Shown here one piece after another: positions 4,290 through 36,353 of a stretch of DNA of 36,353 bases. The notes beneath the pieces are model-generated. The model saw only the letters and a program-made list of their open reading frames with translations, was not told where the DNA came from and ran no database searches. This DNA is from a virus. The stretch is from the UHGV virus genome UHGV-0234394; one strand, given 5' to 3'. Position 1 is the stretch's first letter, and each line of letters opens with the position of its first letter. The translations under genes were made by a program, and so were the position numbers.

Positions 4290-4600
4290 TGCACACACAA
4301 AAAAACCGCTTGCCATGCCGCAATCAGTCAGGTTACATTTCCGCTGCACCTCACAAAACGGGTGCCGGGTTTCGCAGCCTGCTGACTACACAAGCGCACA
4401 ACCGCGCCAGCGGTTTTTTTGTGCGTACTGTATTGCCACGTTTTTTTCGCGTCAGAATTATGGCGGGGCGTACGGGGCCGACTTCGGTCGGGCCGGGTTC
4501 TTGTGTAGCCGGTACTGCGAACCTCGTACGTCTCGCCACCCACAGTTTCGCAGCTCTGGATGGTGAGTTTTCACAACTTACTACACAAGGGGCCACACCA
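4290..4600 (+). other. structured non-coding region (candidate regulatory RNA or terminator cluster)
   Basis: No credible ORF; perfect 15-bp inverted repeat cacaaaaaaaccgct (4296-4310) / agcggtttttttgtg (4409-4423); T7 runs; GC hairpin with a TTCG loop at about 4476-4496. Confidence 0.35.
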
Positions 4601-32371: not shown

Positions 32372-33157
32372 TCAATCACCTATGTGATTACGTTCTATAT
32401 ATCTTACAATCTTCTCTAAAGATTCAAATCCCCACCTCTGCATAGCATGTGGGAATTCTGTATATTCATAATCTTCTATGGTGAGATCCCATGTACTTTT
32501 CTTGAATTCACACTGATATAATCGCACAGTCTTGTTTAAAACCAACCCTTCTAACACACTGCTTTTCTTAATGATTTTGTCAATGTCTTTATTGTTAATC
32601 CCAATGTAGATAGCTGTTACCGAACTTAAATCAGTTATCTTGTCAATTAAAATATTTTCTTGCTTTTGTAATAGCCCCACTCGCTTTATTATTCTAACTT
32701 CTTCTTCATATTTCCAATGCAATGATTTAGTAAGCAATAATTTACTAATTACATCAGCGCTATAAATGTTTTCTTGACTGATTTTTAGTTTACTTTTTAT
32801 TCGACTCTCTAAATAATTAATGTCACCTTTCTGTGCCGTAATTAGGCATTTTTCTTCATCATCAAACCCTGCCCTTTCTGTGTCAATTGCTACAACAAAC
32901 CCCTGATGTTTATCAGCATAATGTGACCACATCAGTACATTGAGAGGATTTTTAGAAAGGCATAAGCAGGCAACATTTTGATTGATCTCCCCCCTCATAG
33001 CTAATGGTTCAAGCGATTCACCATCTAATGAAAGTTCATAGCCATAGCTTTCAAAAGGATCATTAAACTCACTATATGGAGTGAATTTTATAGAGATGTA
33101 ACCATCTTTAAAAAATCGTTCCAATGATGTCTTATCTATATATTTATACAGAATCAT
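32372..33157 (-). CDS. AT-rich accessory protein of unknown function (about 261 aa), N-terminal LYKY motif
   Basis: Track ORF 32372..33208 begins with TTG; first ATG gives MILYKYIDKTSLERFF; strongly AT-rich versus flanking D and ogr; convergent with D. Confidence 0.6.
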   Translation of the reverse strand: MILYKYIDKTSLERFFKDGYISIKFTPYSEFNDPFESYGYELSLDGESLEPLAMRGEINQNVACLCLSKNPLNVLMWSHYADKHQGFVVAIDTERAGFDDEEKCLITAQKGDINYLESRIKSKLKISQENIYSADVISKLLLTKSLHWKYEEEVRIIKRVGLLQKQENILIDKITDLSSVTAIYIGINNKDIDKIIKKSSVLEGLVLNKTVRLYQCEFKKSTWDLTIEDYEYTEFPHAMQRWGFESLEKIVRYIERNHIGD

Positions 33158-33352
33158 AATATATTCAGAATTAATTATAGGTGTTATCAGTATACAGTAC
33201 TTCAACAAGTAGATGTAAAGATCCCATTTAAACGTTCCTCCTCAATACGCGGATTAAACAAATTAAAGCATCTTACTCAAAATGGACCATCAGTTGGATT
33301 TAGAGCCAACACAACCTAGAATAGCGGCAGCACCACGTTAAGGGAGGTCGCT

Positions 33353-33613
33353 ATGTTCCGTTGTCCGCTTTGTGGCGCATCTGCCCGTATCCGCACCAGT
33401 CGTCCGGAAAATGATTCAAACACCGTGCGACAAAAGTATTACCAGTGCAACAACCTGGAATGCGGCGTATGCTTCTCAACACTGGAAGCTTTCCATAAAT
33501 TCACATCGAAACACGCCTCCGGCGTTCACTCTTCAGAAGGTATCCCGTGGCATGAGCTGCCAGCTTCACACAGGGGAAACAATCAGATGAGTTTGCCTTT
33601 ACCTCAGAATTAA
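33353..33613 (+). CDS. ogr: late transcription activator, Ogr/Delta zinc-finger family
   Basis: MFRCPLCG...YYQCNNLECG four-Cys pattern as in P2 Ogr; GGGAGG SD. Confidence 0.85.
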   Translation: MFRCPLCGASARIRTSRPENDSNTVRQKYYQCNNLECGVCFSTLEAFHKFTSKHASGVHSSEGIPWHELPASHRGNNQMSLPLPQN

Positions 33614-33701
33614 CAGGCAGAATTGCCGGAGTAACAAAAAAGCGATAGATTACGCGCGGGTGCCTTTCGGCTGATGGTCGGAGGGAATACCCGAAGGCCA
33701 G

Positions 33702-33938
33702 ATGTGGAAAGGCCCCGGAAAACATTTCTGTTTAACCGAGGCCCTAACACTTCTTACCTTCGCAAGTAGAAGGTTAGCGCCTCTCCTCTCAGGAGACAAG
33801 CGTTATGACGCAAATTCCGTTAAAAACCCTGTTACTTTGCATAACTGCGGTAGCGATAATCTGGATCCTCCACACATCACCGTGCGAGTTACGATTCAGG
33901 TTTGCTGGCACGGAAATTGCGGCATTCTTACTATGTAA
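33702..33938 (+). CDS. mok: mok-like leader ORF overlapping hok
   Basis: 78-codon ORF in a different frame spanning nearly all of the hok-like gene, the arrangement seen in hok/sok loci. Confidence 0.45.
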   Translation: MWKGPGKHFCLTEALTLLTFASRRLAPLLSGDKRYDANSVKNPVTLHNCGSDNLDPPHITVRVTIQVCWHGNCGILTM

Positions 33939-33945
33939 TAAGTAA
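33805..33945 (+). CDS. hok: Hok/Gef-family type I toxin (46 aa)
   Basis: MTQIPLKTLLLCITAVAIIWILHTSPCELRFRFAGTEIAAFLLCNK: TM helix plus the conserved C-E-(I/L)-R...E-(V/I)-A-A-F core of Hok/Gef; AGGAGA SD 8 nt upstream. Confidence 0.8.
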   Translation: MTQIPLKTLLLCITAVAIIWILHTSPCELRFRFAGTEIAAFLLCNK

Positions 33946-34033
33946 GATAACCGCGACGGGGGAGTAATCCCCCGTCAATCGGTTGCTAAGGTTGGTCGAA
34001 ACGGCACCCTATCTCACAGACATGAACAACAAA

Positions 34034-34065
34034 CCCGCAGCGTAAAAACTGCGGGTTTTCTTTTT
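34034..34065. terminator. intrinsic terminator (functional on both strands) followed by a second perfect hairpin at 34066-34089
   Basis: cccgcag-loop-ctgcggg with T-rich runs on both strands; adjacent 10-bp stem ggtgccctca/tgagggcacc. Confidence 0.65.
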
Positions 34066-34112
34066 GGTGCCCTCACAAATGAGGGCACCATACATAAGCA
34101 ATAGGCATAACA

Positions 34113-34147
34113 GATCAATGCAATAAATCCGATCGATAAAAACGATC
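34113..34147. promoter_or_regulatory. cluster of three GATC sites upstream of com (two inside a GATCGAT direct repeat)
   Basis: GATC at 34113-34116, 34131-34134, 34144-34147; 50-80 bp upstream of the com start. Confidence 0.5.
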
Positions 34148-34194
34148 GATTTGTTATCATATCGGCAGCAGTAACCACACAAGAGGTGCCGCAA

Positions 34195-34392
34195 ATGACG
34201 CAAAATGTACGATGCAAAAATTGCAACAAACTACTTGCCCGCGCCTCATTTCACTACATTGAAATAAAATGTCCGCGCTGCAAAACACTTAACCAGATAA
34301 CGAGAGCCATCGAGCACCCCACACACATGAGGAGTTATGACCGTGGGGATCGCAATCCAGCACCAACCAGCACATACACCGGAACACACTAA
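34195..34392 (+). CDS. com: Com-like zinc-finger translational regulator
   Basis: MTQNVRCKNCNKLLARASFHYIEIKCPRCK...EHPT closely parallels Mu Com (RCKNCNKLL, IEIRCPRCK, EHPT); AAGAGG SD; 3' end overlaps the methyltransferase start. Confidence 0.8.
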   Translation: MTQNVRCKNCNKLLARASFHYIEIKCPRCKTLNQITRAIEHPTHMRSYDRGDRNPAPTSTYTGTH

Positions 34393-35128
34393 GGTTTATC
34401 AGACTGACAATGCCACGCTCTGTCGTGGGAATGCGCTGGAAATATTGCCGCTGATTGAGCCAGAAAGCATTGATGCCTTAATCACTGACCCGCCTTACAG
34501 TTCGGGTGCGACACACAAGGCCGGACGCACCAACCAGGGCAGCCATGCAAAATATCTGAACGGCGAGAACCTTCACCGCTTTGATGGGTTCGCGGGTGAA
34601 AACATGGACGCCCGTTCGTGGGCTTACTGGACACAATTATGGATGGCACAGGCACACCGCGCAGTCAGGCCGGGCGGTTATGCCCTGGTATTTACTGACT
34701 GGCGACAACTACCAGCTTTAACCGATGCGTTTCAGGCCAGTGGCTTTACATGGCGCGGCATCATTGCGTGGAACAAAGGGAGGGGGTCACGAACACCACA
34801 TACCGGGTATTTCCGGCATCAGTGCGAATACATCGTCTGGGGCAGCAAAGGCCATTTAGATAAATCGCCTTCGGGACCGTTCGACGGCTGCATGACGTTC
34901 CCGGTTATCTCGTCAAAGAAAATGCACCCGACCGGAAAACCAGAAGAACTAATGGCGGAACTGGTCAGGACTGTGAATAGTGGCGGAACAGTCCTTGATC
35001 CTTTTATGGGGTCAGGGACAACGGGTGTGGCTGCACTGAAAGCAGGACGCAAATTTATTGGTATAGAAACCAGTGATCATTATTTTGATGTAGCAACACA
35101 ACGGCTCAAAACGGCGATCGAACCATAA
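34337..35128 (+). CDS. DNA methyltransferase, beta-class (DPPY before FxGSGT), N6-adenine or N4-cytosine
   Basis: ITDPPYSS near the N-terminus and LDPFMGSGTTGVAAL near the C-terminus; alternative GTG start at 34343 has better SD spacing. Confidence 0.8.
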   Translation: MTVGIAIQHQPAHTPEHTKVYQTDNATLCRGNALEILPLIEPESIDALITDPPYSSGATHKAGRTNQGSHAKYLNGENLHRFDGFAGENMDARSWAYWTQLWMAQAHRAVRPGGYALVFTDWRQLPALTDAFQASGFTWRGIIAWNKGRGSRTPHTGYFRHQCEYIVWGSKGHLDKSPSGPFDGCMTFPVISSKKMHPTGKPEELMAELVRTVNSGGTVLDPFMGSGTTGVAALKAGRKFIGIETSDHYFDVATQRLKTAIEP

Positions 35129-35357: not shown

Positions 35358-36353
35358 ATGATACAACCTATTTCCGGCCCTCCTCCTGGGCAACCACCAG
35401 GTCAGGGAGATAACCTGCCGTCTGGCGCGGGCAATCAGCCTTTATCCAGTCAGCAACGTACTTCGCTGGAAAGCTTAATGACGAAAGTGACCTCACTGAC
35501 GCAACAACAAAGAGCAGAACTGTGGGCGGGTATCAGGCACGATATTGGTCTGTCGGGAGATTCACCGCTGCTTTCGCGTCACTTCCCTGCCGCTGAGCAT
35601 AATCTGGCGCAACGTCTGTTGGCCGCGCAGAAAAGCCATTCTGCCCGCCAGCTTTTAGCGCAATTAGGGGAGTATTTACGTCTGGGGAATAATCGTCAGG
35701 CGGTCACGGATTATATCCGTCATAACTTTGGTCAGACGCCGCTGAATCAGCTCTCACCGGAGCAATTAAAAACCATTCTCACCCTGTTGCAGGAAGGGAA
35801 GATGGTTATTCCGCAACCACAGCAGCGCGAGGCGACCGACCGTCCTTTATTACCGGCGGAGCACAATGCGCTCAAACAGCTGGTGACCAAACTTGCGGCA
35901 GCAACGGGGGAACCCAGCAAACAGATCTGGCAATCGATGCTGGAACTTTCCGGGGTGAAAGATGGCGAGTTAATTCCAGCGAAACTGTTTAACCATCTGG
36001 TGACCTGGCTACAGGCGCGTCAGACGCTAAGCCAGCAAAATACGCCGACGCTTGAATCACTACAGATGGCGCTGAAACAACCTTTAGATGCCAGTGAACT
36101 GGCGGCGTTATCGGCATATATCCAGCAAAAATATGGCCTTTCTGCGCAATCATCGCTTTCTTCTGCCCAGGCCGAGGATATTCTTAACCAGCTTTATCAA
36201 CGGCGGGTTAAAGGGATTGAGCCGCGTGATATGCAACCGCTGCTTAATCCTTTTCCACCGATGATGGACACGTTGCAAAATATGGCAACGCGTCCCGCGC
36301 TGTGGATACTGTTAGTCGCGATTATCCTGATGCTGGTCTGGCTGGTTCGTTAA
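35358..36353 (+). CDS. flk: flagellar regulator Flk-like protein with C-terminal membrane anchor (chromosomal flank)
   Basis: 331 aa, Pro/Gln-rich N-terminus (MIQPISGPPPGQPPGQ) and hydrophobic C-terminal tail (ALWILLVAIILMLVWLVR), as I recall for enterobacterial Flk. Confidence 0.65.
   Translation: MIQPISGPPPGQPPGQGDNLPSGAGNQPLSSQQRTSLESLMTKVTSLTQQQRAELWAGIRHDIGLSGDSPLLSRHFPAAEHNLAQRLLAAQKSHSARQLLAQLGEYLRLGNNRQAVTDYIRHNFGQTPLNQLSPEQLKTILTLLQEGKMVIPQPQQREATDRPLLPAEHNALKQLVTKLAAATGEPSKQIWQSMLELSGVKDGELIPAKLFNHLVTWLQARQTLSQQNTPTLESLQMALKQPLDASELAALSAYIQQKYGLSAQSSLSSAQAEDILNQLYQRRVKGIEPRDMQPLLNPFPPMMDTLQNMATRPALWILLVAIILMLVWLVR

What the first reader, a model, noticed from the sequence alone, without database searches (positions are those of the whole stretch)
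33640..34090. hok/mok-type type I toxin locus between ogr and the com-methyltransferase module
A 46-aa ORF (33805-33945) has the Hok/Gef architecture and conserved C-terminal core, with a mok-like overlapping leader ORF (33702-33938) and a heavily structured flanking RNA ending in a strong terminator. This is a post-segregational-killing-type module sitting inside a prophage, where it could stabilise the lysogen or act in abortive infection. The Sok-like antisense RNA could not be placed confidently.
Basis: partly seen in the sequence, partly recalled or inferred. Interest (0 to 1): 0.7.

Follow-up and report, generated by a model that had tools for sequence, protein, structure and literature searches.

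The report
Hok/Sok toxin–antitoxin locus in prophage
This is a real but ordinary, already annotated hok/sok-type toxin–antisense-RNA module sitting at the right end of a P2-like (P88-type) E. coli prophage; the only unusual points are that its "mok" leader reading frame is not conserved among close relatives and that its toxin gene was swapped as a cassette.

Summary
The ORF at 33805-33945 encodes a 46-aa Hok/Gef peptide: Pfam PF01848 gives 33.8 bits against a cut-off of 22, and phrog_251 "MokW-like host killing" gives E 3e-13. Identical DNA in complete E. coli genomes is already annotated "Hok/Gef family protein" (WP_032140709.1) between ogr and com.

The surrounding RNA has the hok mRNA architecture:
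- a 5' tac element (33658-75) that can pair with a downstream metastable partner, with ucb (33707-16) or with the 3' fbi (33991-34009);
- a protective 3' stem-loop (33955-76);
- a terminator (34031-58).

The full-length fold has z = -8. It is kept in 32 diverged relatives: 81% of cells are paired against 35-45% in slid controls, and there are compensatory changes.

I placed the Sok-like antisense RNA on the minus strand at about 33763 to 33700. Its promoter is TTGTCT-17-TAACCT, and the -10 box aligns with the -10 inferred from the sokW promoter-mutagenesis primer. Rfam's sok model hits at 47.4 bits, below its gathering score of 59.

The "mok-like" ORF is open here. However, it starts at a position not homologous to R1 mok, and it is missing in most relatives.

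Verdict: already known kind, low interest.

The parts
33623..33651 (+). Candidate sigma-70 promoter of hok mRNA: -35 TTGCCG (33623-28), 17-nt spacer, -10 TAGATT (33646-51). It would start transcription about G33658.
   Evidence: Read directly from the sequence. It matches 8 of 12 consensus positions, so it falls below the scan threshold. It is conserved in P88 and the Stx-phage relative (A5). The predicted +1 coincides with position 1 of the Rfam RF01794 match. Inferred, with no TSS data.
33658..34065 (+). Full-length hok mRNA (about 408 nt).
   Evidence: MFE -168.4 kcal/mol, z = -8.0. The structure is kept in 32 relatives: 81.3% of cells paired against 35-45% in slid controls.
33658..33675 (+). 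tac-like 5' element (GGGUGCCUUUCGGCUGAU).
   Evidence: It pairs with fbi in the full-length fold. It pairs with ucb in the 3'-truncated fold. It pairs with 33676-92 in the nascent 113-nt fragment. The core is invariant in 32 relatives.
33707..33716 (+). ucb-like box (GAAAGGCCCC), the alternative partner of tac.
   Evidence: Inverted repeat I9. It is the RNAalifold consensus pairing, columns 7-17 with 58-67, and the MFE of 33658-33985.
33702..33938 (+). Its status is doubtful.
   Evidence: Open in the window. It has no family hit in Pfam, NCBIfam or PHROGs. It is not conserved among relatives.
33711..33743 (+). Sok-target stem-loop of hok mRNA (GGCCCCGG...CCGAGGCC).
   Evidence: Aligns with the R1 target hairpin in the RF01794 alignment. 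Helices 5 and 6 are 85-90% paired in relatives.
33700..33763 (-). Candidate Sok-like antisense RNA (about 60-65 nt): a 5' tail, a long hairpin (33745 to 33710) and a U-rich tail.
   Evidence: The 67-nt minus-strand segment folds at -29.3 kcal/mol, z = -4.3, with the same shape as the R1-type Sok segment (z = -4.9). The ends are inferred from promoter position and homology, not measured.
33771..33799 (-). Candidate Sok promoter: -35 TTGTCT (33799-94), 17-nt spacer, -10 TAACCT (33776-71).
   Evidence: AGGTTAG on the + strand is invariant in 32 relatives. It is column-aligned with the R1 TATCCT box and with the Sp5 sokW sequence at the same place. I infer the sokW -10 box from the mutagenic primer YO-421 of the 'pro-less' construct in PMC8621323; the figure itself was not available.
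33782..33796 (+). hok Shine-Dalgarno AGGAGA (33791-96) sequestered by anti-SD UCUCCU (33782-87) in a local hairpin.
   Evidence: Folds. The outer stem (alignment columns 130-135 with 155-161) is 99.5% paired in relatives.
33805..33945 (+). hok toxin CDS, 46 aa: MTQIPLKTLLLCITAVAIIWILHTSPCELRFRFAGTEIAAFLLCNK.
   Evidence: PF01848 at 33.8 bits, above the gathering score of 22. phrog_251 at E 2.8e-13. Annotated as WP_032140709.1 Hok/Gef family protein. dN/dS about 0.2-0.3 against five alleles.
33955..33976 (+). Stable 3' stem-loop (GACGGGGGA-GUAA-UCCCCCGUC), the likely 3' end protector of the processed mRNA.
   Evidence: Perfect 9-bp inverted repeat I10. Helix 16 is 99.3% paired, and 4 of its 9 pairs show compensatory changes.
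33991..34009 (+). fbi-like element (GUUGGUCGAAA-C-GGCACCC), complementary to tac.
   Evidence: MFE. Duplex energies are -23 to -35 kcal/mol in 31 of 32 distinct 5'/3' end pairs; the exception, L054 at -18.9, had its fbi picked in the wrong place by the script. Helix 1 is 93.7% paired in relatives.
34031..34065 (+). Intrinsic terminator of hok mRNA (10-bp stem plus UUCUUUUU).
   Evidence: Terminator scan.

Best explanation
This is a hok/sok-family type I toxin-antitoxin locus carried as accessory cargo at the right end of a P88-like (Xuanwuvirus, P2-family) prophage.

Proposed mechanism:
1. A constitutive promoter (33623-51) makes a roughly 408-nt hok mRNA.
2. While nascent, its 5' tac element is held in a metastable hairpin. 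Once complete, tac is locked to the 3' fbi element, so the mRNA is inert and stable.
3. Slow 3' trimming back to the stem-loop at 33955-76 removes fbi. tac then switches to ucb, and the leader opens.
4. In a cell that keeps the prophage, the short-lived Sok-like antisense RNA (minus strand, about 33763 to 33700) pairs with the target hairpin at 33711-43. The duplex is destroyed and no Hok is made.
5. When Sok synthesis stops, through loss of the element, host transcription shut-off by an infecting phage, or prophage induction, the stable mRNA pool is translated. The 46-aa Hok peptide inserts into the inner membrane and kills or lyses the cell.

What is shown here: family membership of the peptide, the alternative RNA pairings and their conservation, and purifying selection on the peptide.

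What is inferred by homology with R1 hok/sok and Sp5 hokW-sokW: the transcript ends, 3' processing, RNase III decay, toxicity, and the biological role.
For: Peptide evidence:
- Pfam HOK_GEF is above its gathering score, and the peptide matches phrog_251 'MokW-like host killing'.
- Six of the seven residues conserved in more than 80% of 1,264 Hok peptides are present: M1, C12, T14, C27, E28 and E37 (alignment; logo in bioRxiv 10.1101/2025.08.07.668861).
- dN/dS is about 0.2-0.3 with saturated dS.

Annotation and distribution:
- Identical DNA is annotated Hok/Gef in 100%-identical E. coli genomes, and 1,257 of 5,426 complete genomes carry a megablast-level relative.
- The same ogr-adjacent position is occupied in P88, P884B11, 500465-2, Chuche and PhiR44_2; Shae_phiSM also carries the locus but is unannotated there.

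RNA evidence:
- Rfam RF01794 matches 33658-33816 over the full model length at E 2e-9. It matches on the same strand as in the R1-type positive control, which scores 87 bits.
- The full-length fold shows tac-fbi pairing with z = -8.
- Removing the 3' end switches the MFE to tac-ucb.
- The nascent 113-nt fragment forms the metastable 5' hairpin. This is the three-state scheme described for R1 (PMC9841398).
- The structure is kept in 32 relatives with 21 compensatory pairs, against 7-12 in slid controls.

Sok evidence:
- The minus-strand promoter boxes are invariant and align with the sokW -10 that I infer from the mutagenic primer (PMC8621323).
- The candidate Sok folds like R1 Sok.
Against: - The Rfam sok model scores 47.4 bits, below its gathering score of 59.
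- The NCBIfam HokA and Hok-family models score far below their cut-offs: 27.7 against 89 and 25.2 against 73.
- The -10 box TAACCT matches the sigma-70 consensus at only 3 of 6 positions, and neither promoter passed the generic scan.
- Pro26 replaces the Leu found in more than 80% of Hok peptides.
- A conserved mok is required for hok translation in R1, and it is absent from this subfamily.
- There is no expression or toxicity data for this allele.
Confidence: 0.88

Rival explanations
1. The locus is a decayed, non-functional hok relic, like most chromosomal hok loci of E. coli K-12. The ORF and RNA elements persist but no toxin is ever produced.
For: - Pro replaces the conserved Leu before the key Cys (logo).
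- The leader ORF is not conserved, although mok translation is needed for hok translation in R1 (PMC9841398).
- The RNA and NCBIfam model scores are below their thresholds.
Against: - The peptide is under purifying selection, with dN/dS about 0.2-0.3.
- All RNA elements are intact and show compensatory changes.
- The allele is 99-100% identical in 28 genome records.
- It sits in prophages related at about 92-96% identity to sequenced phages of the P88 group. P88 itself was obtained by induction of a lysogen (abstract of PMC5285337).
- Single alanine changes at the conserved Hok residues did not abolish toxicity (bioRxiv 10.1101/2025.08.07.668861).
Confidence: 0.09
2. The region is only the 3' untranslated tail and terminator of ogr, and the 46-aa ORF is a chance reading frame.
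For: No terminator-like site was found between the ogr stop (33613) and the hok leader, so ogr read-through into the region is possible.
Against: - The Pfam hit is at E 2.5e-8 and the PHROG hit at E 2.8e-13.
- A 46-48-aa ORF is conserved in all 47 distinct relatives despite saturated synonymous divergence.
- The same module occurs in lambdoid Stx phages that have no ogr next to it.
Confidence: 0.01
3. It is a working hok/sok module whose role in this phage is to assist lysis and phage release on induction, as shown for hokW-sokW of Sp5. On this view it neither stabilises the lysogen nor aborts superinfection.
For: - hokW-sokW is the only prophage hok/sok characterised. Sok disappears on induction, Hok is made before the endolysin, and phage yield halves without the locus (PMC8621323).
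- Here the locus lies directly downstream of the late activator ogr with no terminator between them. Late read-through on the plus strand could therefore collide with Sok transcription. This last step is inference.
Against: - Nothing in the sequence distinguishes the three possible roles.
- R1 hok/sok reduces T4 plating (cited in PMC8621323).
- The locus sits beside other cargo of defence type: a PDC-S31-like gene and a methyltransferase.
Confidence: 0.3

Closest known systems
hok/sok of plasmid R1 (with mok), the paradigm type I toxin-antitoxin system
   Same: - A Hok/Gef-family membrane peptide.
- A long structured mRNA with tac, ucb and fbi elements and a metastable 5' hairpin.
- A 3' stem-loop followed by fbi and a terminator.
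- An antisense RNA gene inside the leader, with its promoter overlapping the hok ribosome-binding region and a hairpin plus U-rich tail.
   Different: - The peptide is only 28% identical and is 46 aa rather than 52 aa.
- The leader is more diverged: RF01794 gives 47 bits here against 87 bits for R1 type.
- No start codon follows the conserved GAGG where R1 mok starts. The only leader ORF here starts 5' of the Sok-target hairpin and is not conserved.
- The location is a prophage, not a plasmid.
hokW-sokW of Sakai prophage 5 (Stx2 phage), PMC8621323
   Same: - A prophage-borne hok/sok.
- The same -10 box sequence (TAACC) for the antisense promoter at the aligned position.
- The same PHROG family, phrog_251 'MokW-like'.
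   Different: - HokW is 51 aa and its leader is of the R1/Rfam-seed type (GGGUGCUUGAGGC...). This locus belongs to a separate leader type (GGGUGCCUUUCGGC...) with a 46-aa peptide.
- The host element is a lambdoid phage rather than a P2-like phage.
The 46-aa Hok loci of P88-like phages (P88 gp52, P884B11, 500465-2) and of Stx2a phages (for example Lyz12581Vzw_75)
   Same: - The same subfamily, with the same leader, 3' UTR and peptide length.
- In P88-like phages, the same position next to ogr.
   Different: The window carries a different toxin allele, 46-48% identical at the amino-acid level. It lies in a block of about 200 bp (33750-33955) embedded in flanks that are 97-100% identical to P88. 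This is an allele swap with saturated dS.
Chromosomal hokA of E. coli K-12 (NCBIfam NF007290)
   Same: It is the best-scoring named Hok equivalog. It shares the W in the helix and the AAFL(A/L)C C-terminal motif; the HokA sequence is recalled from memory, and the score comes.
   Different: The score is 27.7 bits against a cut-off of 89, so this is not a HokA orthologue.

Membership tests
Hok/Gef toxin family (Pfam PF01848) | The peptide matches the family HMM above the curated gathering score. | tested here: met
   33.8 bits against a gathering score of 22, E 2.5e-8, residues 9-44 on profile positions 7-42 of 42. phrog_251 at 50.6 bits.
Hok/Gef toxin family (Pfam PF01848) | A small (about 50 aa) peptide with an N-terminal hydrophobic helix and the conserved residues M1, C16, T18, L30, C31, E32 and E41 (logo numbering of bioRxiv 10.1101/2025.08.07.668861). 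| tested here: met
   The peptide is 46 aa with a hydrophobic stretch L6-I21. M1, C12, T14, C27, E28 and E37 are present. The Leu position is Pro26, so 6 of 7 are kept.
Hok/Gef toxin family (Pfam PF01848) | The peptide is toxic and damages the inner membrane when expressed. | not testable with these tools
   This needs an induction experiment.
NCBIfam HokA equivalog (NF007290) / Hok subfamily (NF007279) | A score above the curated cut-off. | tested here: not met
   27.7 against 89 and 25.2 against 73. It is therefore a Hok-family member but not one of the named K-12 or plasmid orthologue groups.
hok/sok type I TA locus (R1 paradigm) | A long-range 5'-3' pairing (tac-fbi) closes the full-length mRNA. 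| tested here: met
   In the MFE, 33658-75 pairs with 33991-34009, z = -8. Helix 1 is 93.7% paired in 32 relatives, with one compensatory pair.
hok/sok type I TA locus (R1 paradigm) | An alternative tac-ucb pairing in the 3'-truncated mRNA, and a metastable 5' hairpin in the nascent RNA. | tested here: met
   The fold of 33658-33985 gives tac-ucb. The fold of 33658-33770 gives a tac hairpin with 33676-92. The RNAalifold consensus picks tac-ucb. These are predictions only, with no probing data.
hok/sok type I TA locus (R1 paradigm) | A cis-encoded antisense RNA (Sok) with its own promoter inside the hok leader. | tested here: inconclusive
   The promoter boxes TTGTCT-17-TAACCT are invariant in relatives and align with the R1 and sokW boxes. 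The hairpin is R1-like. However, the RF01794 score of 47.4 is below the gathering score of 59, and there are no transcript data.
hok/sok type I TA locus (R1 paradigm) | A mok leader ORF whose translation is coupled to hok and whose initiation region is the Sok target. | tested here: inconclusive
   An ORF at 33702-33938 exists in the window. Its start is not at the R1-homologous site. In P88 it ends after 19 codons. It is reduced to ATG-TGA or absent in the loci whose toxin is 63-67% identical to the window's (several lie on 44-51-kb viral contigs). Only 18 of 47 relatives have an SD-preceded leader ORF that reaches the hok SD.
Rfam RF01794 (sok) | A score at or above the gathering score. | tested here: not met
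   47.4 bits against 59, E 2e-9, full-length match. The relatives P88 (47.9) and the Stx phage (42.1) are also below it, while the R1-type control scores 87.2. The subfamily lies outside the curated model's reach. It is homologous but not captured.

The most novel reading that the evidence does not exclude
The 46-aa, P88/Stx-phage subfamily of hok loci may work without a mok leader peptide. The R1 mok start is missing. The only leader ORF is present in a minority of relatives and lies on the other side of the Sok-target hairpin. Sok would then control hok by a mok-independent route, such as RNase III cleavage or blocking the leader refolding that frees the hairpin-sequestered hok SD. In addition, the toxin CDS plus Sok promoter behaves as an exchangeable cassette of about 200 bp inside a constant regulatory RNA scaffold.
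Probability: 0.3. Interest if true: 0.4.

Novelty: already known. Interest (0 to 1): 0.15.

Why it matters
It matters little as a discovery. Hok genes in prophages are catalogued: 6,290 Hok homologs were found in IMG/VR phages, and 9.3% of Escherichia phages encode one (bioRxiv 10.1101/2025.08.07.668861). This exact peptide is already named in RefSeq.

What this work adds is a full element-by-element map of one uncharacterised subfamily: both promoters, tac, ucb, fbi, the Sok target, Sok itself, the 3' stem-loop and the terminator. It also adds the observation that mok is not conserved in that subfamily. That gives experimenters a concrete and inexpensive test of whether mok coupling is universal in hok/sok regulation.

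Tried and rejected
1. Rfam at gathering thresholds found nothing in the region. The E-value search found only the sub-threshold sok match; every other hit (Thr, Trp and Leu leaders, miRNAs, BSnc120) was noise driven by the terminator hairpin.

2. The word-indexed protein search returned only 6 close E. coli proteins and missed the P88 allele. The genome-contig scan gave only 6 loci. The viral-contig scan supplied the diversity that I used.

3. I tested whether the strong divergence of the CDS against P88 reflects diversifying selection. I rejected this: dN/dS is about 0.22 and dS is about 1.7, so it is a recombinational allele swap.

4. Comparing cognate with non-cognate 5'/3' duplex energies gave only a small difference, -27.6 against -26.2 kcal/mol, because the tac-fbi core is nearly invariant. 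I therefore relied on column-wise pair counts.

5. I searched for a start codon after the conserved GAGG, the R1 mok SD position. There is none in the window. A TTG lies 14 nt downstream in some relatives only.

6. PADLOC has no model that hits the Hok peptide.

7. The supplement look-up for the exact peptide failed for technical reasons.

Full report
**1. Observation**

The ORF at 33805-33945 (+) encodes MTQIPLKTLLLCITAVAIIWILHTSPCELRFRFAGTEIAAFLLCNK.
- It matches Pfam HOK_GEF (PF01848) at 33.8 bits, E 2.5e-8, above the gathering score of 22.
- It matches phrog_251 "MokW-like host killing" at E 2.8e-13.
- The NCBIfam HokA and Hok-subfamily models hit but fall far below their cut-offs.
- The overlapping 78-codon ORF at 33702-33938 exists but matches no family.
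- The segment 33655-34068 folds at -168.4 kcal/mol, z = -8.0 against dinucleotide shuffles.
- It ends in a 10-bp terminator at 34031-58 plus a U tract.
- The neighbours are ogr (PF04606), com (PF10122) and an N6/N4 DNA methyltransferase.

**2. Context**

The window is a P88-like (Xuanwuvirus, Peduoviridae) prophage, 92-99% identical over most of its length to P88, P884B11, 500465-2, PhiR44_2 and Chuche. A flk-like host gene starts at 35358 (the gene name is from memory).

DNA identical to 33600-34110 occurs in complete E. coli genomes, where PGAP already annotates WP_032140709.1 "Hok/Gef family protein" between ogr and com. Of 5,426 complete E. coli genomes, 1,257 carry a megablast-level relative. 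P88-like phages have a "MokW-like host killing" gene at the same place. Lambdoid Stx2a phages carry a 76%-identical copy.

**3. RNA anatomy**

Rfam's sok model RF01794 matches 33658-33816 over its full length (47.4 bits, E 2e-9) but stays below its gathering score of 59. As a control, an R1-type plasmid locus scores 87.2 bits. That match is also on the hok-sense strand and runs from the mRNA 5' end to the hok ATG. The model is therefore written in leader sense, and the strand of the window hit is the expected one. P88 and the Stx-phage copy score 47.9 and 42.1, so this whole subfamily lies just outside the curated model.

The folds reproduce the three-state scheme described for R1 (PMC9841398):
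- In the full-length RNA, the 5' element 33658-75 pairs with 33991-34009, which is tac-fbi.
- With the 3' end removed (33658-33985), the MFE switches to 33658-68 paired with 33707-16, which is tac-ucb.
- In the nascent 113-nt fragment, tac forms a hairpin with 33676-92.

The hok SD AGGAGA (33791-96) is held by an anti-SD (33782-87). A perfect 9-bp stem-loop at 33955-76 precedes fbi, like the stem-loop that protects the processed R1 mRNA.

**4. Comparative test**

I collected 85 related loci and aligned 32 non-redundant ones (below 97% identity to each other; 58-97% to the window).

The window's own full-length MFE structure was projected on this alignment:
- 81.3% of cells form standard pairs, against 35-45% when partners are slid by 1-3 columns.
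- 21 pairs have changes on both sides, against 7-12 in the slid controls.
- 0 of 500 shuffles reach the observed covariation score.
- The tac-fbi helix is 93.7% paired.
- The 3' stem-loop is 99.3% paired, with 4 of 9 pairs compensatory.

Because the structure was derived from one of the aligned sequences, the paired-cell figure is somewhat favoured. The compensatory counts are less affected.

**5. Sok**

On the minus strand, TTGTCT (33799-94), a 17-nt spacer and TAACCT (33776-71) occupy the columns of the R1 Sok promoter (TTGCGC-17-TATCCT) and of the Sp5 sokW promoter region.

I infer the sokW -10 box from primer YO-421 of the "pro-less" construct, which abolished antitoxin activity (PMC8621323). 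The figure was not available to me.

AGGTTAG (the + strand of the -10 box) and the TTG of the -35 box are invariant in the 32 relatives. This region also contains the hok SD hairpin, so the conservation has more than one possible cause.

The downstream 67 nt (33764 to 33698) fold into a tail-hairpin-tail RNA (-29.3 kcal/mol, z = -4.3) shaped like the R1-type Sok segment. I therefore place Sok at about 33763 to 33700. Its ends are inferred.

**6. mok**

In R1, mok starts 8 nt after a GAGG that lies 3' of the Sok-target hairpin, and its translation up to the hok SD is needed for Hok synthesis (PMC9841398).

In the window the homologous GAGG (33740-43) is conserved, but no start codon follows it.

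Among 47 distinct relatives:
- the same ATG opens 78-79 codons only in the window's allele group and one other locus;
- it opens 19-24 codons in P88-type loci, ending 28-44 nt before the hok ATG;
- it opens a single codon (ATG-TGA) in most loci of the group whose toxin is 63-67% identical to the window's, and it is missing elsewhere.

Counting any SD-preceded start whose ORF reaches the hok SD gives 18 of 47 loci. Some relatives use a GTG two bases later in the same relative frame, so the frame is not random. Even so, it is clearly not a conserved requirement. Status: inconclusive.

**7. Allele swap**

Against P88 the window is 100% identical from 33330 to 33749. Identity falls to 50-70% from 33750 to 33930, and returns to 97-100% at 33960-34049. 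The diverged block covers the Sok 5' tail, the Sok promoter and the hok CDS, which is 48% identical at the amino-acid level.

dS is saturated (about 1.7) and dN/dS is about 0.22. This is a recombinational exchange of an old allele under purifying selection, not diversifying selection. The closest CDS alleles found are 91% identical.

**8. Function**

The mechanism I commit to is the classical one. A stable, self-locked toxin mRNA is activated by 3' trimming. An unstable antisense RNA neutralises the activated form. Toxin is produced when antisense synthesis stops.

The sequence alone cannot decide which biological situation matters for this phage. The possibilities are prophage loss, superinfection by a lytic phage, or induction. 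Two published findings bear on this:
- The only studied prophage case, hokW-sokW, promotes lysis and doubles phage release (PMC8621323).
- R1 hok/sok reduces T4 plating (cited there).

No terminator-like site separates ogr from the locus. Late-phase read-through could therefore interfere with Sok transcription. This is speculation.

**9. Novelty**

The gene is already annotated, its PHROG family exists, and hok enrichment in prophages is published (bioRxiv 10.1101/2025.08.07.668861). I found no paper on this particular 46-aa subfamily or on hok in P88-like phages. This makes the element map and the non-conservation of mok modest additions.

Interest is low (0.15). The most novel reading still open is mok-independent control in this subfamily (probability about 0.3).

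Noticed in passing
window 32372-33208 (- strand): A 278-aa DUF2971 ORF lies in an AT-rich island (GC 0.31-0.37 against about 0.5 in the flanks) just upstream of ogr. It matches the PADLOC candidate defence system PDC-S31 (E 3.7e-27) and phrog_1762 (unknown function). It is absent from the same spot in E. coli CFSAN018748, whose hok locus (33600-34110) is identical. It is probably an anti-phage moron.
   Followed up: partly
window 4346-4420 and 4456-4543 (+ strand): The isrK Hfq-binding RNA (RF01394, 64 bits) lies directly upstream of a C4 antisense RNA (RF01695, 83 bits). Both are above their gathering scores and lie in the left (integrase/replication) arm of this P2-like prophage. From memory, this resembles the P1/P7-style c4 immunity RNA module.
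   Followed up: no
window 33750-33955: A block of about 200 bp covering the Sok promoter and the hok CDS is 50-70% identical to P88, while both flanks are 97-100% identical. dS is about 1.7 and dN/dS about 0.22. This is a cassette-like exchange of the toxin allele within a constant regulatory RNA scaffold.
   Followed up: yes
window 34066-34089: A perfect 10-bp hairpin, GGTGCCCTCA-caaa-TGAGGGCACC, follows the hok terminator immediately, close to where similarity to P88 falls away. Its arms resemble the tac (GGGUGCC) and fbi (GGCACCC) boxes. It could be a remnant of another hok end, or a coincidence.
   Followed up: no
window 34130-35128: A com-like zinc-ribbon gene (34186-34392) overlaps the start of an N6/N4 DNA methyltransferase (34337-35128) by 56 nt. 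It is preceded by the palindrome CGATCGATAAAAACGATCG (34130-48) and by the only promoter-like site that passed the scan (34133-60). The arrangement resembles Mu com-mom (from memory), but with an ordinary amino-methyltransferase.
   Followed up: no
L004 360-659 (R1-type IncFII plasmid NZ_CP128973.1): In this plasmid copy the mok start lies 57 nt before the hok ATG, so the leader ORF is in frame with hok and forms a 99-aa ORF from a GTG at 360. From the numbering in PMC9841398 I calculate 58 nt, which is out of frame, for R1. PGAP annotates only a 33-aa C-terminal fragment as Hok (102-nt CDS at 558-659). This is either a 1-nt difference or a numbering offset.
   Followed up: no
window 35358-36353 compared with L001: In the window the ogr-hok-com-methyltransferase arm abuts a flk-like host gene. 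In E. coli CFSAN018748 the same arm abuts raiA/bamD. Related prophages with an identical hok locus therefore sit at different chromosomal sites.
   Followed up: no
L005, L006, L009 (genome-contig hits): P88-type hok loci turned up on contigs labelled Planococcaceae, Vagococcus and Xanthomonas pisi. These taxa are outside the four families reported to carry Hok (bioRxiv 10.1101/2025.08.07.668861). The L006 peptide is identical to that of P88. Contamination of those assemblies by enterobacterial DNA is the likely cause.
   Followed up: no
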